Assembly: GCA_043806835.1 (NCBI GenBank)
Contig: JAZDGQ010000047.1
Location: 1-50,879, forward strand
DNA from: Pseudomonadota bacterium
GTDB lineage: Bacteria; Pseudomonadota; Alphaproteobacteria; Micavibrionales; UBA2020
Length of the DNA stretch: 50,879 nt
Reading direction: 5' to 3'
Every line of letters begins with the position of its first letter. Positions within the stretch are counted from its first letter, which is position 1. Shown piece by piece: positions 2,867-31,866 of this stretch. The position numbers and the translations under genes were made by a program. Under the pieces are notes generated by a model. The model did not search any database, was not told where the DNA came from, and saw only the letters and a program-made list of their open reading frames with translations.

Positions 2867-4317
2867 TTCAACATCTCCTTGATTGGCATTGTCCATGTGG
2901 CGGGATCCGTCGGGGTTTGTTTCCCGCTCGTCATATTCTTGACTTCGTGGGGTTGTCCGTCGCTGAAAGGCGGGAACCACACATAGGGGATACCCTTGCG
3001 GCTGGCGTATTTGAGCTGGTCGGGGATTTTCTTCGCCGCATGATACAGTTCGACGTTGAAACCACGCGCGCGCAAATCCTGCGCAGTTTTGGAGGCTTCG
3101 GCGCGACGCTCCTCGGACGGGAGAATGACCAGAACCTGCGTCGGAGATTTTTGTCCGACCGGCAATTTGCCTCTCTCATGCAAATAGGTGAACAACCGCG
3201 AGAACCCGATGGAAATACCGACGCCGGGAAGTTTCCTGCTGATGTACTGGCTGGCCAGATCGTCATACCTCCCACCGGAGCAAATAGAACCGTAACTCGT
3301 ATTATCGAAGAACATGGTCTCATAAACTGTGCCAGTGTAATAATCGAGGCCACGGACGATAGATAGATCCGCTATTATTTCGCCTTCGGGGATATGTGCG
3401 AGCGCATTTAATACAAAAATCAACTCCTTTTTCCCTGCCTCGAAAAGGTCGTTGCGTGTAAAAATAAGTTTATCCAGTTTTTCTTCTAGAATGTCCGGAT
3501 TTCCGGCTTTTATACAAGTTAATTGCCCGATTTGTTCAAAAAGCTTGCCACCTTTTGAGGGCAACTCTAAATTATGTTCGTGACATATACGCACGATTGA
3601 ATCATTGTAAGCGGAGGCGGATTTTTCTCCTTTATCAATTGCCCTCATAACATCCGTGAGAAGTTTCTCATCTTTTACGCCGATAGCGTTCAGATAACCC
3701 GCCAGAAGTTTCCGGTTATTAATTCTTATCAGGAATTTTTCCGTCTCCATCCCCGGCAATCCCTTCAGCACCTCCCAAATGATTGCGGGCATTTCGGCAT
3801 CAAAGTGCAAAGGCAGACTGTCGGCGTTCACAACATCAATGTCGCACTGGGTGAATTCGCGGAAGCGGCCTTTCTGCGGACGCTCGCCGCGCCATGATTT
3901 CTGCATCTGGTAGCGCTTGAAGGGAAAGACCAGCTCGTTGAAATGCTGCGCGACATACCGCGCCATCGGCACCGTCAGATCGAAGTGTAGGGCGAGGCGG
4001 GCATCAGAAAAGCCAGAGCCATCACCATGACCTGCGCCATCAGCAGATCCCCCACCATAACCAGAGCCATCACCAAAACCAACAGAGCGGTCATCCTGCA
4101 AGCGGTGCAGCGTATAAATCTCTTTTTCCGTTTCGCCGCCCTTGGCCAGCAGCGCCTCGACTTCCTCGACGGCGGGAGTCTCGATGGAGCAGTAACCGTA
4201 GCTCTCGAACACCTTGCGGATTTTGTCCATCCATTGCAGTTCGACGGCGCGATACTCCGGCAGCCACTCCGGAAAGCCGCTGATCGGTTTTGGTTTATAG
4301 ATTTTCTGGTCGGACAT
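2863..4317 (-). CDS. hisS: Histidine--tRNA ligase
   Basis: ISGFPEWLPE, LHFDLTVP, RGERPQKGRFREFTQCDID, RGLDYYTG, GGRYDDL and the anticodon-binding domain. Likely start is ATG 4317. Confidence 0.97.
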   Translation of the reverse strand: MSDQKIYKPKPISGFPEWLPEYRAVELQWMDKIRKVFESYGYCSIETPAVEEVEALLAKGGETEKEIYTLHRLQDDRSVGFGDGSGYGGGSADGAGHGDGSGFSDARLALHFDLTVPMARYVAQHFNELVFPFKRYQMQKSWRGERPQKGRFREFTQCDIDVVNADSLPLHFDAEMPAIIWEVLKGLPGMETEKFLIRINNRKLLAGYLNAIGVKDEKLLTDVMRAIDKGEKSASAYNDSIVRICHEHNLELPSKGGKLFEQIGQLTCIKAGNPDILEEKLDKLIFTRNDLFEAGKKELIFVLNALAHIPEGEIIADLSIVRGLDYYTGTVYETMFFDNTSYGSICSGGRYDDLASQYISRKLPGVGISIGFSRLFTYLHERGKLPVGQKSPTQVLVILPSEERRAEASKTAQDLRARGFNVELYHAAKKIPDQLKYASRKGIPYVWFPPFSDGQPHEVKNMTSGKQTPTDPATWTMPIKEMLK

Positions 4318-6337: not shown

Positions 6338-8779
6338 CTATCCTCTCAGCGCCCCGCCCGTCTGCTTTTGCACGCTCCCGATGATTTTGGCGGAGAGCGC
6401 GGCGATGTCCTCGTCGGTGAGGGTTTTTTCGACGGGTTGCAGCGTCACGGCGAGGGCGACGGATTTCTTTCCGGGCTCCACGCCCTTCCCCGTGTAGACG
6501 TCGAAGATCTCCACGCCGGAAATCAGGGATTTATCCGTATCCCGGAGGACGCGGACGAGCTTCCCGGCCTCGACCGTCTGATCGACGATAAACGCGAAGT
6601 CGCGCAGAACCGGCTGGAACGGCGAAGGCTTCAGCAGTTCCCGGCGCGGCCCCTTCCTTTTCGGCGATGGGATATTTTGCAGGAACACTTCAAATCCGAC
6701 AAAAGCTCCATCACGTTTTCCACCAAAAGCCGAAGAAAAATCTTCTGAGAATGCTGATGCCGATTTTGGTAGTACCCTAGGATGAAACTCTCCGAAATAC
6801 GCCAGCACCGCGGGGCCGAGGCGCAGCACGCCCGACCGTCCCGGATGATACCATTCCGGCGCGTCCGCGGTGATTTGTAGGCTGCCTGTGTTGACGCCGC
6901 AGGCTTCCAGCACCGCCAGAGCGTCCGCCTTGGCGTCCATCGCGTCCGCACTTCGGGCGGGGCGCGACCAGTGGCGCGGTTCGGCATTGCCGCTCCGCAC
7001 GCCCCCCGCCACGGTCAGCTGGCCGTCGTATTCGGGCGATTTATAAACGCCGCCGACTTCGAACAGCGCGGCGTCGGGGATGCCTCGATCCGCGTTCTTC
7101 CCCGCCGCCTCGATCAGGTTCGGCAGGATCGACGGGCGCATGACCGCGAGATCGGCGCTGATCGGGTTGACGAGCGTAAGGGCTTTCTTGTTCTGGTGGA
7201 GTTGCGCTCCGAACAGGTCGGCTTTCGCGTCATCCATGAACGACCATGTGACTGTTTCATACAGCCCGCGTCCGGCAAGGATATGACGCGCGGCCACCAC
7301 CCGCTTTTGCAGGGGGCTCAGCGCCGCGCGTTTTTCGCCAGGCTCCCTGACGACGGGCACTGCTGGAATATTGTCGTAGCCGTCGATCCGCAGAATTTCC
7401 TCGACGATATCGGCAGCACCCTCGACGTCATGGCGCCAGCCGGGAGTCTTGACCGCCCATGCCTTGCCGGAGGTCGCGACGGTGAAGCCGAGCGCGTTCA
7501 GGATTTCCAGCTGCCGAGCCTCGGACAGGTCGCTGCCGCCCAGAAGTTTCAGGCGTTCCGGCGCATAGAAGATGGTGCGGGAGATGTCGGGCGTTTTCCC
7601 CGCGCCGGAAAGCTCGCTCGCTTCCCCGCCGCACTGTTCAAGGATCATCTCCGTGGCGATTTCGGCTCCGTCCTCCGTGAATCCAGGATCGATCCCGCGC
7701 TCGAAACGGTAGCGGGCGTCGCTGTCGATCTGGAGTTTCTGGCCGGTTCTGGCAATGGAGGCGGGGGAGAAATAAGCGCACTCCAGATAAACATTCTTCG
7801 TATCCGCATCGACGGCGGAAGAAACGCCACCGATGACGCCGCCGAGCGCCAGCACGCCGGAGTCGTCGCAAATGACGACCATCCCGTCGTCCAGATCGTA
7901 AGTTTTATCGTTGAGGGCTTCGAGTTTCTCGCCCTTCCGGGAGAGTTGCACATGGATATTGCCCTTCAGTTTATCCGCATCGAACACATGAAGCGGGCGG
8001 TTGAGGCCGAGGGTCATGTAATTCGTGATATCGACCAGCACCGAGATCGGCTTCTGCCCGACTGCTTTCAAATGATCTTGCAGCCATTTCGGGGACGCGC
8101 CGTTTTTCACGCCCCGGATATACCTGCCGATAAACAACGGGCAGGTTTGCGTGTCCTCCAATATGACGGACACCGGATTTTTGAACTTCCCGGCGACGGT
8201 TACGGCTTTTGGAGGCTTCAGCGTACCGATGCCCGTGGCCGCAAGATCGCGGGCGATGCCGTAGACACTGGCGCAGTCGCCGCGGTTGGGAGTCAGGTTG
8301 ATTTCGATGACCGGATCGTTCACCCCAAGCGCGTCAGCGGCGGGAGATCCCGTGACGGCGCTGTCCGGCAGTTCGATCACGCCTTTATGTTCCTCGGAGA
8401 GCAGCAGTTCGCGTTCCGAACACATCATGCCGTTCGATTCCTGACCCCGGATCAGCGTTTTCTTGAGCGTCATGTCGGAGCCAGGGATATAACTTCCCGC
8501 AGGCGCGAATACGCCTTTCATTCCCGCATGCGCGTTCGGCGCGCCGCAGACGACTTTCAGCTTTTCTTTGCCCGTATCGACGATCAGGCATTGCAGCTTG
8601 TCCGCGTCCGGATGTTTTTCCGCCGACACGATGTGACCTACGACAAAGCCTTTGAAAGTGCTGGCGCGGTCTTCGATGCCTTCCACCTCAAGCCCGATGG
8701 CGGTCAGTTTCTGCGAGATTTCGTCGAGCGTCGCAGCGGTGTCGAGATACCATTTCAGCCAGGATAACGGGAATTTCAT
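6338..8779 (-). CDS. pheT: Phenylalanine--tRNA ligase beta subunit
   Basis: MKFPLSWLK, HPDADKL, VVCGAPN, TPNRGDC, RFERGID, HPGRSG and a C-terminal FDX-ACB domain (RDFAF...KKSVA). Confidence 0.98.
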   Translation of the reverse strand: MKFPLSWLKWYLDTAATLDEISQKLTAIGLEVEGIEDRASTFKGFVVGHIVSAEKHPDADKLQCLIVDTGKEKLKVVCGAPNAHAGMKGVFAPAGSYIPGSDMTLKKTLIRGQESNGMMCSERELLLSEEHKGVIELPDSAVTGSPAADALGVNDPVIEINLTPNRGDCASVYGIARDLAATGIGTLKPPKAVTVAGKFKNPVSVILEDTQTCPLFIGRYIRGVKNGASPKWLQDHLKAVGQKPISVLVDITNYMTLGLNRPLHVFDADKLKGNIHVQLSRKGEKLEALNDKTYDLDDGMVVICDDSGVLALGGVIGGVSSAVDADTKNVYLECAYFSPASIARTGQKLQIDSDARYRFERGIDPGFTEDGAEIATEMILEQCGGEASELSGAGKTPDISRTIFYAPERLKLLGGSDLSEARQLEILNALGFTVATSGKAWAVKTPGWRHDVEGAADIVEEILRIDGYDNIPAVPVVREPGEKRAALSPLQKRVVAARHILAGRGLYETVTWSFMDDAKADLFGAQLHQNKKALTLVNPISADLAVMRPSILPNLIEAAGKNADRGIPDAALFEVGGVYKSPEYDGQLTVAGGVRSGNAEPRHWSRPARSADAMDAKADALAVLEACGVNTGSLQITADAPEWYHPGRSGVLRLGPAVLAYFGEFHPRVLPKSASAFSEDFSSAFGGKRDGAFVGFEVFLQNIPSPKRKGPRRELLKPSPFQPVLRDFAFIVDQTVEAGKLVRVLRDTDKSLISGVEIFDVYTGKGVEPGKKSVALAVTLQPVEKTLTDEDIAALSAKIIGSVQKQTGGALRG

Positions 8780-26702: not shown

Positions 26703-28982
26703 CTAGAATCTCGTGCCGAAACTGAACCTGAACTGCTGCACCTTGTCGAAGCTTTCCCTCAGCACCGGCCTTGACAGATCGATCCGTACGGGGCCTAAGG
26801 GCGAACGCCATGAAATCCCGCCGCCGGCGGCCATGCGCACGCTGCTCACATCCTGAATCCCGCCGCCGGAATCATCCAGCGTCCAGAGATCCCCGACATC
26901 GGAGAAAACGTGCGCCCGAAGCCCCAGATCCTCCGGAAGACCCGTCGGAAAATCAAGCTCGACAGACCCGCGCCAGAAGCGGTTGCCCCCGAGGGCGTCA
27001 TCGCTGCCAGAATCGCGGGGGCCGATGCCCGAATCCGCAAAGCCGCGCAGGGTATCCCCGCCCATGTAAAAGCGCTCGTTGATCCGCACCGTTTCGCCGC
27101 CCCAGCCGTGAATATATCCGACCTCGCCCAGCAGGCTGAGAACCCATTTGTCCACGACGGGGTAATAGTACGTTCCCCCGACACGGGCCTTGGCGTAACG
27201 CGCCTCGCCGCCAAGGCCGGCGACCTCGGTATTGATGCGGCCGATGAACCCTTCAGTCGGGGCAAGCCTGCTGTCCCTCGTGTCATAGATCAATGTCTGC
27301 GCGACGGCGGAGGTATCCCGCTTCCCCTCCTGCTGCTGGATGTAGAGAGAAGCCGTCGCCAGAACGTCGGTAATCTCGTTCCTCTCATACCTGTAATTCA
27401 GATTCTGACGCCATCTTTCCGACAGAGGATACCCGAGGCGCAGCCCCCCCCCCGACCGGCGGCTGTTGTAGGAACTCTGATCCTGGAGATCCTGCGTCAC
27501 GTGGAACAGATCGATCCCGGCACTCAGATCCCGTTTCAGGAAATAAGGCTCGGTAAAGCTGAAATTGAATTCGCTCTTCTTCGAAGCCAGCATCGAGGAC
27601 AACTGCAACTCCTGCCCCTTGCCGAGAAAGTTTCTCTCCTTGATCCGGAAGTCTGCCAGAGGGCCGTCCGTCGTGGAATATCCTGCCCCCACCGAAAGCT
27701 CCCCGGTTGACTTTTCATCGACCCTCACGTCGATGTTCGTCCTGTCGGGAGAACTGCCGGGACGCGGCCTGACTTCCGCCTTCTCGAAGAATCCGAGATC
27801 CCTGATCTGCTGCTCGGATTTTCTGATTCTGGAAGCATTGAAGGGATCCCCCTCCACCAGCTTCATCTCCCGGCGGATCACCTCGTCCAGAGTACGGGTA
27901 TTGCCGCTGATGTTGATGTTTTCGATGAAGGTCTTCTGCCCGTCATTGACGGTGAAAACGATGTCGACCGTCCGCGCGGGGCGGTTGCGGGTCACTGCCG
28001 GCTGAACGTCCACGAAAGCGAACTGGAGGTTGCCCAGCTCGTTCGTCATCCGGGTGATCGTGTCTTCTATCTCCCCCGCCCTGTACCAGTCGCCGGGTTT
28101 GAAAGCGACCGTGTCCTTCACGCGCGCCGCATTCAGCTCCGGAATTTTGCTCCGGACATCGACTTTGCCGATTTTGTACCGGTTCCCCTCCTCGACGGAG
28201 AACGTCACCAGGAAATCCTTGCGGTCCGGCGACAGCTCCGCGATCGCCGTGTCCACGCGGAAATCGGCGTACCCGTGCTCCAGATAAAATTTCCGCAGCA
28301 ATTCCTGGTCATAGGCGAGACGGTCGGGATCGTATTTGTCGTCCGACGTCCAGAACCTGTACCAGCGATCCTCCCGGCTGCGGATGACCTTCTGCAACTG
28401 CCCGTCGCTGTAGCGCCTGTTGCCGATGAAGCTGATGCGGGAAATCAGCGTTTCCGGACCTTCGCTGATTTCAAAAATCAGATTCACGCGGTTCTGGTCC
28501 ATTCTGATGATCTTGGGATCGACCACAGCCGAAAAACGCCCGGTCACCCGGTATATTTCCTGCACCCTCTCCGCATCCGCCAGGACTCTGGCGCGCGTCA
28601 GCACCTGCCGCGGCTTCAGCTGAAGCTCCGCCTGAAGATCCTCGGACTTTATCTTCTTGTTCCCCTCGAAACGGATTTCGTTGATAATCGGATTCTCCGT
28701 CACCGTCACCACGAGAGCCTGCCCCTGCTGGCGGATCGACACATCCGCAAAAAGCCCCGTCGCGTAAAGACTTTTCAGTGCGCGATCCAGCAGCGCCTGA
28801 TCGAACGGATCCCCATTCTGGAGATCGATGTAAGAGAGCACCGTCGCCGCCTCGATCCTCTGGTTGCCTTCCACCCTGATCTCGCGGATGACGTCGGCGG
28901 CAAAGGCCGCAGAGGCGAAAAACAGCACCGCCCCCAGCAGAAAGGCGACCGCAAGTTTCTGGAACATCAGGGATTTTTTCAT
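26703..28982 (-). CDS. bamA: Outer-membrane protein assembly factor BamA
   Basis: POTRA repeats (IRVEGNQRIE, IRFEGNKKI, ISGNTRTLDEVIRRE), LRGF motif and C-terminal FSFGTRF. Confidence 0.98.
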   Translation of the reverse strand: MKKSLMFQKLAVAFLLGAVLFFASAAFAADVIREIRVEGNQRIEAATVLSYIDLQNGDPFDQALLDRALKSLYATGLFADVSIRQQGQALVVTVTENPIINEIRFEGNKKIKSEDLQAELQLKPRQVLTRARVLADAERVQEIYRVTGRFSAVVDPKIIRMDQNRVNLIFEISEGPETLISRISFIGNRRYSDGQLQKVIRSREDRWYRFWTSDDKYDPDRLAYDQELLRKFYLEHGYADFRVDTAIAELSPDRKDFLVTFSVEEGNRYKIGKVDVRSKIPELNAARVKDTVAFKPGDWYRAGEIEDTITRMTNELGNLQFAFVDVQPAVTRNRPARTVDIVFTVNDGQKTFIENINISGNTRTLDEVIRREMKLVEGDPFNASRIRKSEQQIRDLGFFEKAEVRPRPGSSPDRTNIDVRVDEKSTGELSVGAGYSTTDGPLADFRIKERNFLGKGQELQLSSMLASKKSEFNFSFTEPYFLKRDLSAGIDLFHVTQDLQDQSSYNSRRSGGGLRLGYPLSERWRQNLNYRYERNEITDVLATASLYIQQQEGKRDTSAVAQTLIYDTRDSRLAPTEGFIGRINTEVAGLGGEARYAKARVGGTYYYPVVDKWVLSLLGEVGYIHGWGGETVRINERFYMGGDTLRGFADSGIGPRDSGSDDALGGNRFWRGSVELDFPTGLPEDLGLRAHVFSDVGDLWTLDDSGGGIQDVSSVRMAAGGGISWRSPLGPVRIDLSRPVLRESFDKVQQFRFSFGTRF

Positions 28983-29023
28983 GCTTTTCTTGCCGGTTTG
29001 ATTGGGGTCTATGAATCTTGAGC

Positions 29024-29365
29024 CTAGGATATCAGGTCTTTGAGGTAAGCCTCCACATTTGGGCAGAACTTGATAATACCAAGAATAACAATAGAGATAC
29101 CAAGATTGATGCCAAGATCAAACCAAAAAGACTCTAAGCCGTTGAATAGGGTGTCGTACACGAGGGTCAGAATAACAAGAAAGATGAAAAAAAACACGCC
29201 CGACATCAGAAGAGAGATCAGTTTTTCAAATATCCGGATGTGTTTTTTTACAGTTTTGTTGCCAGTTTCGTCGCTGGTCTGATTATCGGGGTCTATGATG
29301 ACATTTATTTCCTTGATGATTTTATCAGTTGCGGGGTTCTGTCCTTTATCAAATCCGTTCGCCAT
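29024..29365 (-). CDS. Small AT-rich two-TM hypothetical protein inserted between rseP and bamA
   Basis: 113-aa ORF, 35-42% GC in hand-counted 60-mers, two hydrophobic helices; the C-terminus resembles that of RseP. Confidence 0.6.
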   Translation of the reverse strand: MANGFDKGQNPATDKIIKEINVIIDPDNQTSDETGNKTVKKHIRIFEKLISLLMSGVFFFIFLVILTLVYDTLFNGLESFWFDLGINLGISIVILGIIKFCPNVEAYLKDLIS

Positions 29366-29462
29366 ATTATATTCACCATAAGGTCCCTAATGATATTTGT
29401 TCATACGCTGAACGACACTAGGTTATCAGGCTTTTGAGATAGGAAAACACTTTGAGCTGGAC
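29024..29462. repeat. Imperfect direct repeat of the rseP 3' end (29024-29069 vs 29418-29462)
   Basis: Hand alignment gives 33/46 identical, 20 of the first 24, both copies anchored on the TAG stop; ATAATACCAAG is also shared further in. Confidence 0.7.
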
Positions 29463-30623
29463 GAGATCATTCCACGTCGCAAACAGCATAATACCAAGTA
29501 AAGTCGCCAAGCCAACCCTTAAAGCATATTCCTGAAAGCGGTCACTCATCGGCTTTCCTTTGAGTGTTTCCATAGCATAGAACGTCAGATGTCCTCCATC
29601 CAATATGGGAATAGGGAGGAGGTTAATCAGCCCAAGATTAACTGACAGGAGCGCCGTAAAAGTAACCAGAGCCGTAAACCCCTGCTGGGCAAAATCCCCC
29701 GCATAGGCGCCGATCCGCAGGATACCTCCCAGTTCGTCGGCATCGCGAGTACCCATAAGAATCTGCCCGATGGCTTTCAGCGTATCGGCGGAAATCTCCC
29801 ACACCGTCTTGAACGACGCCGCAAAAGCGGAGACAGGGGTATGCTGTTTCATCGCAAAGGGCTTGGACGGGCTGATAACCCCGATCCTGCCCCGCTGACT
29901 CTTGAAGCCGAAACGATCCGTATCCTCCACCAGCACCGGCGTGACGCGCACGATCACAGGCTGATCGCTCCACTGATCTTTGCCTGTCGAATGCACCAGC
30001 GTGATGTCGATTGCCTTGTTCAGGCTGATGGCCGTGTACTGCGCCATATCCTGAAAGCGCTCGATCAGACGTCCGTTCATCGCGAGAATTTTATCGTCCG
30101 GCAGAATGCCCGCCTTTTCCGCCGGGGAACCAACCACCAGCTTGGCCACGATTGGCGGCGTATAGGGCTGCCCGCATATCGCATACAGAGCCGTCAGGAT
30201 GATGATGGCGAAAATGAAATTGACAGCCGGCCCCGCGACGATAATGGCGGAACGCTTTGCGACCGGTTGCGTGAAAAAAGCCACTTTCTTTTCTTCTTCC
30301 GTAAACGGACGTTTACGATCTCCCTCCTCGACCTCGTCTCTATGTTTAACGCTCGCCGGATCCGTGTCCCCGAACATCTGGACATACCCCCCCAGAGGCA
30401 CCCAGCTGAATTTCCAGCGCGTACCGGCCTTGTCTGTCCAACCAAAAATCTCCGCGCCGAAACCGATGGAGAACATTTCGACTTTCACCCCGCACAGCCG
30501 CGCAATGATGTAATGACCCCATTCATGGACAAACACCAGAATGCTCAGAACCACCACAAAAGGAAGAATATAAGTTGTCAGAAAATCCGCCGGTGTGGTG
30601 AGGAATTTTTGCAGCATCTCCAT
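29418..30623 (-). CDS. rseP: RIP metalloprotease RseP
   Basis: HEWGH, PLGGYV, PDZ domain and NLLPIPILDGGH. Confidence 0.97.
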   Translation of the reverse strand: MEMLQKFLTTPADFLTTYILPFVVVLSILVFVHEWGHYIIARLCGVKVEMFSIGFGAEIFGWTDKAGTRWKFSWVPLGGYVQMFGDTDPASVKHRDEVEEGDRKRPFTEEEKKVAFFTQPVAKRSAIIVAGPAVNFIFAIIILTALYAICGQPYTPPIVAKLVVGSPAEKAGILPDDKILAMNGRLIERFQDMAQYTAISLNKAIDITLVHSTGKDQWSDQPVIVRVTPVLVEDTDRFGFKSQRGRIGVISPSKPFAMKQHTPVSAFAASFKTVWEISADTLKAIGQILMGTRDADELGGILRIGAYAGDFAQQGFTALVTFTALLSVNLGLINLLPIPILDGGHLTFYAMETLKGKPMSDRFQEYALRVGLATLLGIMLFATWNDLVQLKVFSYLKSLIT

Positions 30624-30675: not shown

Positions 30676-31866
30676 TCAGTCTACTCCTGCAACAACCTTC
30701 TCCGCAATACGCCGCGCATCGAGATCAAGCCGAAAAACGTCCTGAATGCCCGACATGGACTGAACAGGCACGATTTGCAGGACTTCCCCGACAACACGTT
30801 CTATTTCGGAAAAATTCAGCCTGCGGGACAAGAATGCCCCTACCGCCACCTCGTTGGCGGCATTAAACACAACGGGAGCACCGGAGCCCGCCTGTAAGGC
30901 CTGCCGCGCCATTTTCAGCACAGGAAACCTTTCCGGATCGACGGGCTCGAATGACATGCTGAAGCTGTTTGACAGATCAAGAGTATCGCCGGTCGTCCTC
31001 ATGCGCTCCGGCCACGCCAGAGTATGCGCTATGGGCGTTCGCATATCCGGCGCTCCCATTTGCGACAATACAGACCCGTCAATGTACTCCACCATTGAAT
31101 GAACGACAGACTGCGGGTGGATCAATACGTCAATCTTCCCGGATTCAAGCTGAAAAAGATAGCTCGCCTCAATGATTTCCAGAGCTTTGTTCATCATCGT
31201 GGCGCTGTCGACGGAAATCTTCGCGCCCATCGACCAGGTGGGATGCTTCATGGCCTGCTCCGGCGTCACATCCCGCAATTCCTCCCGCGTCCTCCGCAGG
31301 AACGGCCCGCCCGATGCCGTCAGAACGATCCGCCTGATCTGCGTGTGCTGCTTTGCGTTCAGAACTTGAAAAACCGCATTATGCTCACTATCGACGGGGA
31401 GAAGGGTCGCCCCGTGTTTTCGCACCGCCTCCATCATGAACGATCCGGCGCAGACGAGGGATTCTTTATTCGCGAGAGCCACCGTGGTTCCCTGCCGGAT
31501 CGCCTCCAGGGTCGCCTCAACCCCTACGGCTCCCACAATCGCCGCCATCACCCAGTCCGCCGGAAGCCCCGCCGCCGACACGACAGCCGCTTGTCCGGCC
31601 TCGGCCATGACGGACGTCCCTTCCAGAGCCGCCTTTAAATCGCCGTACAGCGACTCGTCGGCGATGACGGCGACTTCGGCATGGAGATCCCGCGCCTGCC
31701 TTGCAAGAAGTCCGACATTTTTATGGGCAGTCAGTGCGCGTATTTTGAATTTTTCGCGATGCCCGGAAATCAGGTCAACGGTGCTGCGCCCCACGGAGCC
31801 AGTGGAGCCGAGGATCGTGACGGTTCTTGGAGGCGCGTCCGGAGAAAGGAGGGGGGATGTTTTCAT
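30676..31866 (-). CDS. dxr: 1-deoxy-D-xylulose-5-phosphate reductoisomerase
   Basis: ILGSTGSVG, LANKESLV, PVDSEHNA, HPTWSMGAKISVDSATMMNK and NAANEVAV. Confidence 0.98.
   Translation of the reverse strand: MKTSPLLSPDAPPRTVTILGSTGSVGRSTVDLISGHREKFKIRALTAHKNVGLLARQARDLHAEVAVIADESLYGDLKAALEGTSVMAEAGQAAVVSAAGLPADWVMAAIVGAVGVEATLEAIRQGTTVALANKESLVCAGSFMMEAVRKHGATLLPVDSEHNAVFQVLNAKQHTQIRRIVLTASGGPFLRRTREELRDVTPEQAMKHPTWSMGAKISVDSATMMNKALEIIEASYLFQLESGKIDVLIHPQSVVHSMVEYIDGSVLSQMGAPDMRTPIAHTLAWPERMRTTGDTLDLSNSFSMSFEPVDPERFPVLKMARQALQAGSGAPVVFNAANEVAVGAFLSRRLNFSEIERVVGEVLQIVPVQSMSGIQDVFRLDLDARRIAEKVVAGVD

What the first reader, a model, noticed from the sequence alone, without database searches (positions are those of the whole stretch)
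29024..29640. Gene-regenerating insertion at the rseP 3' end: a new ORF ends in the old rseP terminus
Seen: rseP ends LLGIM...QLKVFSYLKSLIT* and the inserted ORF ends ILGII...PNVEAYLKDLIS*. The DNA at 29024-29069 and 29418-29462 is 33/46 identical (20 of the first 24), with a shared ATAATACCAAG; a +1 and a -22 nt difference restore the frame. The ORF and the present rseP tail are both AT-rich. Known: integrative elements often target a gene's 3' end and supply a replacement copy. Inference: about 400 bp entered by recombination, replaced the rseP tail, and the displaced tail was captured as the C-terminus of a new two-TM protein inside the essential rseP-bamA operon. No integrase is present, so this is either a remnant or a recombination-driven cassette hotspot.
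Basis: partly seen in the sequence, partly recalled or inferred. Interest (0 to 1): 0.65.

Follow-up and report, generated by a model that had tools for sequence, protein, structure and literature searches.

The report
Duplicated rseP-bamA junction made orphan ORF
The extra ~415 bases between the essential genes rseP and bamA are not foreign DNA but an old, diverged tandem duplication of the gene junction itself, which left both genes intact and created a still-open 113-codon hybrid ORF (BamA signal peptide plus RseP tail): a known kind of event, and a clean traceable origin for an 'orphan' gene.

Summary
The last 24 nt of the 113-codon ORF (29024-29365, minus strand) match the last 24 nt of rseP at 20/24. 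No other of 16,541 ORF ends in this genome exceeds 16/24. The 11-mer ATAATACCAAG and the 33/46 figure also check out. The rseP-bamA gap is 435 nt here, against 2-110 nt in 47 relatives.

The interpretation needs replacing. A second duplicated block lies inside the "insert". Bases 29186-29298 (ORF codons 23-60) are a diverged copy of 28917-29014, which is the native spacer, the bamA start and the BamA signal peptide (score 41; shuffles 18.4±2.4; 0/2000). The order is rseP-tail, spacer', bamA-head', rseP-tail', spacer, bamA. That is the signature of a tandem duplication across the gene junction, not of an integrative element.

The ORF is the join-point chimera and keeps both parental reading frames. 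The present rseP tail is native. Its sequence and its low GC are shared by all relatives. Two pieces, of 119 nt and 102 nt, remain untraced.

The ORF has no homologue anywhere. It predicts a two-helix membrane protein.

Also noted: a strongly conserved promoter-like element inside the rseP 3' codons.

The parts
29418..30623 (-). rseP (site-2 protease, 401 aa), intact
   Evidence: Peptidase_M50 E=6.9e-67 plus PDZ. Full-length orthologues are present in all 41 relatives searched.
29418..29498 (-). Parental rseP 3' end (core CTTGGTATTAT to the TAG stop, 81 nt). This copy still serves rseP.
   Evidence: Tail sequence is conserved in relatives. Identity to G002 is flat along the gene.
29488..29515 (-). 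Promoter-like element inside rseP codons 370-379: TTGGCT, 16-nt spacer, TGgTATTAT. Candidate promoter for the downstream genes.
   Evidence: Found by the consensus scan. TTGGnn-16-TATTAT sits at the same codons in 17/23 family sequences while the spacer varies. It is built from rare codons: TTA 2%, AGG 11%, GGT 12%.
29299..29417 (-). X1: 119 nt of untraced origin. It holds the ORF's GGTGA ribosome site (29373-29377), the ATG (29363-29365) and codons 1-22.
   Evidence: No significant similarity to rseP, bamA, the other blocks or the rest of the genome.
29186..29298 (-). Copy of the native spacer, the bamA start and the BamA signal peptide. It is now ORF codons 23-60, and the former ATG reads GTA (Val39).
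   Evidence: Local score 41 against 18.4±2.4 for shuffles, 0/2000. Three-way alignment with G002. Score 49 and 48/65 identical to the G002 bamA head. Repeats D1 and D4.
29084..29185 (-). X2: 102 nt at the duplication join point (ORF codons 61-94), origin untraced. It contains TTGGCA-16-TATTGT (29088-29115).
   Evidence: No significant match to rseP or bamA. Promoter-like hit.
29024..29083 (-). Degenerate second copy of the rseP 3' end, supplying ORF codons 95-113 and the TAG stop.
   Evidence: 20/24 and 33/46 identity and the 11/11 core. Unique among 16,541 ORF ends. Closest to its own genome's rseP tail, 24/33.
29024..29365 (-). ORF113: join-point chimeric ORF of 113 codons. Predicted membrane protein with two hydrophobic helices (about 49-70 and 79-100).
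   Evidence: Translation. Hydropathy, GC1/2/3 of 0.44/0.26/0.50, and a 120-codon open frame with p=0.013 against shuffles. No homologue found.
28983..29023 (-). Native rseP-bamA spacer (41 nt) that still serves bamA. It is the parent of the spacer copy.
   Evidence: TCATAGACCCC is shared only by the two window copies and is absent from relatives' spacers.
26703..28982 (-). bamA (759 aa), intact. Its first 22 codons (28917-28982) are the parent of ORF codons 39-60.
   Evidence: Omp85 E=4.9e-78 plus 5 POTRA domains. Alignment.

Best explanation
Origin. After this lineage split from its closest sampled relative (G002), about 270-280 bp spanning the rseP-bamA boundary were duplicated in tandem. 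The unit ran from somewhere in the last ~30-35 codons of rseP, through the spacer, to at least codon 22 of bamA.

As always when both breakpoints of a tandem duplication lie inside adjacent genes, three things followed. The upstream gene kept the first copy of its tail. The downstream gene kept the second copy of its head. A chimera of bamA head plus rseP tail was created between them.

The copies have since diverged to about 64-75% identity. About 110 nt (X1) were added to the proximal spacer copy. The bamA-derived ATG was lost. The frame now opens at a new ATG (29365) behind a GGTGA ribosome site, so the former spacer is read as codons 23-38.

How it most likely works (inferred, not shown). 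There is no terminator-like site between rseP, the ORF and bamA, so the ORF is co-transcribed with the operon and/or from the conserved promoter-like element in the rseP 3' end. It would be translated into a small inner-membrane protein. The BamA signal peptide, now internal and without its cleavage site, would serve as a signal-anchor helix, with the basic KTVKKHIRIFEK on the cytoplasmic side. The rseP-derived segment would supply the end of the second helix and the tail. It is best seen as a lineage-specific proto-gene of unproven usefulness.

Sub-claim odds: origin by junction duplication about 0.85; the ORF is translated about 0.55; it has a selected function about 0.35.
For: Two independent duplicated blocks lie in collinear order.
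- The rseP tail copy is unique among 16,541 ORF ends, and 3/1000 shuffles reach its free-alignment score.
- The copy of spacer plus bamA head scores z of about 9, with 0/2000 shuffles reaching it. It is corroborated by alignment to the G002 bamA head.

Both parental frames are kept in the chimera: MKKSLMFQKLAVAFLLGAVLFF ~ VKKHIRIFEKLISLLMSGVFFF, and YLKSLIT* ~ YLKDLIS*.

The TCATAGACCCC spacer motif and the TAG stop are shared only by the two copies in this genome. This places the event in this lineage.

rseP and bamA are intact. The site is empty in 47 relatives.

The spacing of the spacer and signal-peptide copies (272-284 nt) gives a coherent unit length.

Support for a coding ORF: the 120-codon open frame has p=0.013 against shuffles and the GC pattern is codon-periodic. 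Only 5-16% of simulated neutral sequences stay stop-free at 20-35% substitution. No terminator-like site lies between the genes.
Against: X1 (119 nt) and X2 (102 nt), about half of the gap, match nothing. The history is therefore more complex than a single duplication.

The spacing of the tail copies (394-415 nt) differs from that of the head copies (272-284 nt). A secondary insertion of about 110 nt is needed to explain it.

With no homologue, dN/dS cannot be computed, and the open-frame statistics are only moderate.

This is a single MAG.
Confidence: 0.6

Rival explanations
1. Same origin by junction duplication, but the ORF is a neutral, decaying scar that is not a functional gene. What selection retains in the distal copy is DNA or RNA function for bamA, namely the duplicated promoter-like boxes and the leader and ribosome site in front of bamA. 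The frame is open by luck.
For: The rseP 3' end carries a nucleotide-level conserved TTGGCT-16-TGgTATTAT element. The core TGGTATTAT and a TTGGCA-16-TATTGT site survive in the distal copy, 90-130 nt upstream of bamA. The open-frame evidence is only moderate: p=0.013, and 5-16% of neutral simulations stay open. No homologue exists to show constraint.
Against: Both parental frames and the stop codon are preserved across about 30% divergence and several indels. The ORF has acquired a new ATG with a well-spaced GGTGA site. The promoter function is itself untested.
Confidence: 0.3
2. A small integrative or recombination-driven element entered the rseP 3' end and brought a replacement tail. The displaced host tail was captured by an element-borne ORF. 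What remains is a remnant without its integrase.
For: Direct repeats of a gene's 3' end flank a low-GC, lineage-specific stretch. This is the layout of elements such as e14 in icd (own knowledge).
Against: The 'cargo' contains a copy of the neighbouring spacer plus the bamA head. No recombinase domain is present. There is no second copy in the genome and no match in phage or plasmid records or in PHROGs. The present rseP tail is orthologous and not imported. No relative has any cassette at this site.
Confidence: 0.05
3. Assembly artefact. Either two related populations were concatenated end to end (a false duplication), or a chimeric 400-bp insertion arose in a MAG contig.
For: The genome is a 145-contig MAG. 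Reads could not be examined.
Against: The internal copies are degenerate and cannot be the working gene ends of another organism. The tail copy lacks the invariant TWNDL.Q motif. The bamA-head copy lacks ATG and is not followed by POTRA sequence. The copies are only 64-75% identical, unlike assembler-made repeats. Both flanks have the same GC and synteny.
Confidence: 0.04

Closest known systems
Join-point fusion genes of spontaneous tandem duplications in bacterial chromosomes (classical Salmonella/E. coli duplication genetics; own knowledge)
   Same: Both breakpoints lie inside adjacent co-oriented genes. Both parent genes stay intact. The novel joint fuses the 5' end, ribosome site and signal peptide of the downstream gene to the 3' end of the upstream gene.
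   Different: Laboratory and most natural examples are recent, near-identical and unstable. This one is old (about 64-75% identity) and fixed in the assembled genome. It has grown by about 110 nt, has lost the parental start codon, and now translates former intergenic DNA.
Gene-regenerating integrative elements, e.g. prophage e14 in icd, and tRNA/tmRNA-targeting islands (own knowledge)
   Same: The 3' end of a gene is present twice as a direct repeat around lineage-specific DNA. The upstream gene keeps a working end.
   Different: There is no integrase and no mobile-element cargo. The repeats are only 70-83% identical. The intervening DNA contains a copy of the downstream neighbour's head, which site-specific integration does not make.
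Bacterial ORFans of chimeric or mixed origin (review: PMC12315717, citing Watson et al. 2021 and Vakirlis & Kupczok 2024)
   Same: The ORF is lineage-restricted and has no protein-level homologue. Its pieces derive from pre-existing genes of the same genome plus formerly non-coding DNA.
   Different: Here the parents are the two immediately flanking essential genes. The homology is detectable only by local DNA comparison, not by any protein search.
bamA (yaeT) as a separately regulated transcription unit behind rseP in E. coli (sigma-E core regulon, PMC1312014)
   Same: There is a candidate promoter for bamA and the downstream genes lying within the rseP 3' coding region.
   Different: The element here looks sigma-70-like with an extended -10, not like a sigma-E site. 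It is defined only by sequence conservation in one alphaproteobacterial family. No transcription start data exist.

Membership tests
Tandem-duplication join-point chimera | Two duplicated blocks (3' end of the upstream gene, 5' end of the downstream gene) in collinear order a-IG-b-a'-IG'-b' | tested here: met
   Tail copies at 29418-29498 and 29024-29083. Spacer plus head copies at 29186-29298 and 28917-29014. Each is significant on its own.
Tandem-duplication join-point chimera | Both parental genes remain intact | tested here: met
   RseP is full length with M50 and PDZ domains. BamA is full length with Omp85 and 5 POTRA domains.
Tandem-duplication join-point chimera | The chimeric frame reads each fragment in its parental frame | tested here: met
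   VKKHIRIFEKL... aligns codon for codon with MKKSLMFQKL..., with two compensating 3-nt indels. YLKDLIS* matches YLKSLIT*.
Tandem-duplication join-point chimera | One constant repeat period for all duplicated markers | tested here: inconclusive
   The head markers are spaced 272-284 nt apart and the tail markers 394-415 nt. A later gain of about 110 nt (X1) is needed to reconcile them.
Tandem-duplication join-point chimera | Absent from outgroups (derived state) | tested here: met
   The gap is 2-110 nt in 47 relatives and one relative is rearranged.
Integrative element with gene-regenerating att site | Recombinase/integrase gene or a remnant of one | tested here: not met
   ORF113 is the only substantial same-strand ORF. 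Pfam gives only sub-threshold low-complexity hits and PHROGs gives none.
Integrative element with gene-regenerating att site | Cargo of foreign origin, related to other mobile DNA | tested here: not met
   113 nt are a copy of the adjacent spacer plus bamA head. Nothing was found in phage or plasmid records, genome contigs or metagenome contigs.
Integrative element with gene-regenerating att site | The gene-proximal tail is element-derived (replacement) | tested here: not met
   Identity to G002 is flat along rseP, and the low-GC 3' end is shared by all relatives.
Sigma-70-type promoter (element in rseP codons 370-379) | -35 and -10 hexamers at fixed spacing, conserved while the spacer varies | tested here: met
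   TTGGnn-16-TATTAT in 17/23 family sequences, 16 of them with a TGn extension. Codons 373-374 in the spacer vary.
Sigma-70-type promoter (element in rseP codons 370-379) | A transcription start about 7 nt downstream | not testable with these tools

The most novel reading that the evidence does not exclude
ORF113 is a selected small membrane regulator of its own parents. Its first helix is a stranded BamA signal peptide, which is the class of substrate that site-2 proteases such as RseP clear from the membrane. It also carries an RseP-like end. Made in fixed ratio with RseP and BamA from the same transcript, it could act as a decoy substrate or partner that tunes RseP activity or envelope-stress signalling. 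This would be a new regulator born from a junction duplication inside an essential operon.
Probability: 0.05. Interest if true: 0.7.

Novelty: new member of a known kind. Interest (0 to 1): 0.35.

Why it matters
The origin of bacterial lineage-restricted ('ORFan') genes is still debated (PMC12315717). Here an ORF with no hit in searches of billions of proteins can be traced, base by base, to its two flanking essential genes plus a translated former spacer.

This shows that junction duplication followed by divergence can make a protein-level orphan. It also shows that local DNA comparison with the neighbours can reveal such origins when protein searches cannot.

The locus is also a natural case in which an essential operon (rseP-bamA-skp-lpxD) has tolerated a new cistron. 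As a by-product, the analysis points to a conserved promoter-like element embedded in rseP codons. If the ORF proves to be a neutral scar, the finding is an ordinary mutational relic.

Tried and rejected
- **Homologue searches for ORF113.** All were negative or spurious. They covered an order-wide six-frame search, the word-indexed 5.8-billion-cluster search, an exhaustive HMMER search of 1.84 billion representatives, genome contigs and metagenome contigs, exact look-ups, phages, plasmids and PHROGs, and Pfam.
  - The two HMMER hits are repeat proteins that match a short motif many times over (ESFWFDL x9; HIRAFYF x5).
  - The Pfam hits (DUF3671, Dsc3_C) are below cut-off.
  - The best genomic hit, G002:C187, lies antisense to a methyltransferase-like gene and has 4 stops.
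- **ORF body as a diverged copy of the RseP C-terminal domain.** No support from profile or global alignments.
- **X1 and X2 against rseP, bamA, each other and the genome.** Nothing found.
- **Import of the rseP 3' end from a low-GC relative.** The identity profile is flat.
- **Known RNA family or terminator in the gap.** None.
- **Wider junction survey in metagenomes with a conserved 32-mer.** No contigs in metagenome contigs. Genome contigs returned only the genus representatives already in hand, plus the second contig of G010.
- **AlphaFold2 single-sequence model.** All-helical, pLDDT 73, pTM 0.30. It was judged too uninformative for a fold search.
- **TRF.** It does not see the diverged ~280-nt repeat.

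Full report
**Context.**
All genes discussed here lie on the minus strand. In order they are dxr (30676-31866), rseP (29418-30623; Peptidase_M50 plus PDZ), a 113-codon ORF (29024-29365), bamA (26703-28982; Omp85 plus five POTRA domains) and skp/ompH. The genome is a 2.1-Mb, 145-contig MAG. Its genus relatives are deposited as Alphaproteobacteria or Rhodospirillales MAGs from groundwater, lakes and palsa.

**Checking the observation.**
The identity is 33/46 with one 1-nt gap, and 20/24 at the very end. ATAATACCAAG occurs at 29073-29083 and 29488-29498. The stop-to-core distances are 49 and 70 nt.
- I compared the last 24 nt of rseP, in fixed register, with the last 24 nt of every stop-to-stop ORF of at least 60 codons in the genome (16,541 ORFs). 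The ORF scores 20. The next best scores 16, and the bulk lie at 4-9.
- A free local alignment of the 435-nt gap against rseP scores 33, against 21.3±2.5 for dinucleotide shuffles, with 3/1000 reaching the observed score.
- At protein level the signal is weak (BLASTP E=0.76). hhalign against a 19-sequence RseP C-terminal profile aligns only residues 103-113 with the last 11 profile columns.
- The duplicated rseP end is therefore real, but it is short, about 60-80 nt.

**Is the stretch lineage-specific?**
I measured the distance from the rseP stop to the bamA ATG in 28 relatives and in 20 more. It is 2-110 nt, mostly about 20-60 nt, in 47 genomes. One genome of another family (G046) has a rearranged neighbourhood. 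In the window the distance is 435 nt. No relative carries any cassette at this site, which argues against a hotspot.

**Is the present rseP tail a replacement?**
No. The tail LLGIMLFATWNDLVQLKVFSYLKSLIT is the family consensus. The GC of the last 200 nt of rseP is depressed in every relative (0.42-0.55), whatever the genome GC. DNA identity to the sister species G002 is flat along the gene, at 0.75-0.88 per 25 codons, with no jump at the 3' end.

**The decisive result.**
- The repeat finder showed two further direct repeats between the 'insert' and the DNA just downstream of it (D4, 13/14 identical, spacing 284; D1, spacing 272).
- I aligned 29084-29417 against the native spacer plus the first 300 nt of bamA. 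This gave a 113/98-nt local alignment scoring 41. Dinucleotide shuffles gave 18.4±2.4 with a maximum of 36, and 0/2000 reached 41.
- The matching segment, 29186-29298, is a copy of 28917-29014. That region comprises 32 nt of the spacer, the bamA start codon and the signal peptide.
- Codon for codon, BamA MKKSLMFQKLAVAFLLGAVLFF corresponds to ORF residues 39-60, VKKHIRIFEKLISLLMSGVFFF, with two compensating 3-nt indels.
- The copy aligns even better with the bamA head of G002 (MKKSRIFQNL...; score 49, 48/65 identical). This is independent confirmation of homology. It also suggests that the copy kept ancestral states that the working bamA has since changed.
- The motif TCATAGACCCC in the spacer is shared only by the two copies in this genome. 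Both tail copies use TAG, where nearly all relatives use TAA or TGA (one distant relative, L025, also uses TAG). The event therefore happened within this lineage, after the split from G002.

**Anatomy of the gap.**
In gene orientation the order is:
- rseP tail (parent)
- X1, 119 nt, no match
- spacer' plus bamA-head', 113 nt
- X2, 102 nt, no match
- rseP-tail', 60 nt
- spacer, 41 nt
- bamA

The collinear order a-IG-b-a'-IG-b is what a tandem duplication produces when one breakpoint lies in the 3' part of rseP and the other in the 5' part of bamA. The ORF is the join-point chimera, bamA 5' fused to rseP 3'. The 272-284-nt spacing of the head markers is a plausible original unit length. The larger spacing of the tail markers (394-415 nt) implies that about 110 nt (X1) were added later to the proximal spacer copy. 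X1 and X2 match neither parent, nor each other, nor anything else in the genome. X2 sits at the joint and may be filler or parental sequence diverged beyond recognition.

**Artefact?**
Reads could not be examined. Even so, an assembler-made duplication or an end-to-end join of two populations is unlikely, for three reasons.
- The copies are only 64-75% identical.
- The inner tail copy lacks the invariant TWNDL.Q residues of RseP.
- The inner head copy lacks ATG and is not followed by POTRA sequence.

Neither inner copy could be a working gene end of another organism.

**Is the ORF a gene?**

Evidence for:
- The stop-to-stop frame of 120 codons is longer than in 98.7% of dinucleotide shuffles of the gap.
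- GC1/GC2/GC3 are 0.44/0.26/0.50, which is codon-periodic. The low GC stems mostly from an Ile/Leu/Phe/Lys/Asn-rich composition.
- Both parental frames and the parental stop are preserved despite about 30% divergence. In a substitution-only simulation, 5-16% of sequences stay open at 20-35% change.
- A new ATG lies 7 nt after GGTGA.
- No terminator-like site separates the ORF from rseP or bamA.

Evidence against or missing:
- No homologue exists anywhere, so constraint cannot be measured.
- There are no expression data.

The protein has a hydrophilic N-terminal region of about 45 residues ending in KTVKKHIRIFEK. It has two hydrophobic helices (about 49-70 and 79-100), an acidic loop between them and a short tail. 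This suggests an N-in/C-in hairpin (inference). AlphaFold2 without an alignment gives only a long helix (pLDDT 73, pTM 0.30).

**A by-product.**
rseP codons 367-379 read GCT TTA AGG GTT GGC TTG nnn nnn TTA CTT GGT ATT ATG in the genus and in two further genera, even in genomes of 0.61-0.62 GC. In this genome TTA makes up 2% of Leu codons, AGG 11% of Arg codons and GGT 12% of Gly codons. The conserved letters form TTGGCT, a 16-nt spacer and TGgTATTAT. The hexamers and their spacing are kept in 17/23 family sequences while the spacer codons vary. That is the conservation pattern expected of a promoter. bamA is known to be separately regulated behind rseP in E. coli (sigma-E core regulon, PMC1312014). 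The distal tail copy keeps TGGTATTAT, and a TTGGCA-16-TATTGT site lies next to it. A rival view follows: part of what is preserved there may be a bamA-proximal promoter or leader rather than coding sequence.

**Comparison with known systems, and verdict.**
The event belongs to the well-known class of join-point fusions made by tandem duplications. Other agents of this scan have described similar chimeras in other genomes. Those notes are leads, not evidence. This case differs in three ways. It is old. It has lost the parental start codon and recruited former spacer as coding sequence. It produces a protein-level orphan, a gene category whose origins are still debated (PMC12315717). I rate it a new member of a known kind, of modest interest.

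Noticed in passing
window 29488-29530 (minus strand; rseP codons ~364-379) and the same codons in L002-L013 and L020-L023: A stretch of rseP is conserved at nucleotide level across three genera using rare codons (TTA, AGG, GGT, ATT). It forms TTGGCT-16-TGgTATTAT with a variable spacer, and is a candidate promoter for bamA-skp-lpxD embedded in rseP.
   Followed up: partly
L011 (G016), L060 (G310), L065 (G312): In three family members the conserved amphipathic RseP tail (...QLKVxDYVKxLIS) is replaced by an unrelated hydrophilic Lys/Thr/Ser-rich tail (e.g. NCETCFTKNKDKTTP, MYNAKSSKAPVTTTKKN). The rseP 3' end is therefore evolutionarily labile in this family.
   Followed up: no
L079 (G046:C314:8500-13800): In one genome of a neighbouring family, rseP is followed 4 nt later by a 170-aa signal-peptide protein instead of bamA, with uppS-cdsA on the opposite strand. 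This is a local rearrangement of the otherwise universal dxr-rseP-bamA order.
   Followed up: partly
genus-level loci L002-L012: GC content of the rseP locus ranges from 0.43 (G002, the closest relative at 87% RseP identity) to 0.62 within one genus. This is a large compositional divergence among close relatives.
   Followed up: no
whole genome (G000): The genome has 118 tracts of at least 400 nt with GC at or below 0.42, against a mean of 0.569. Earlier first-stage notes report AT-rich in-frame inserts with short direct repeats in hisS (4003-4086) and pheT (6689-6793) of this window. Local duplication followed by AT-biased decay may be a recurrent theme here.
   Followed up: no
window 29176-29202 / 29235-29261: A 27-nt imperfect inverted repeat (78% complementary) pairs the A-run of the former bamA start copy with the T-run at the end of the signal-peptide copy. 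The parental bamA head has the same A-run/T-run arrangement.
   Followed up: no
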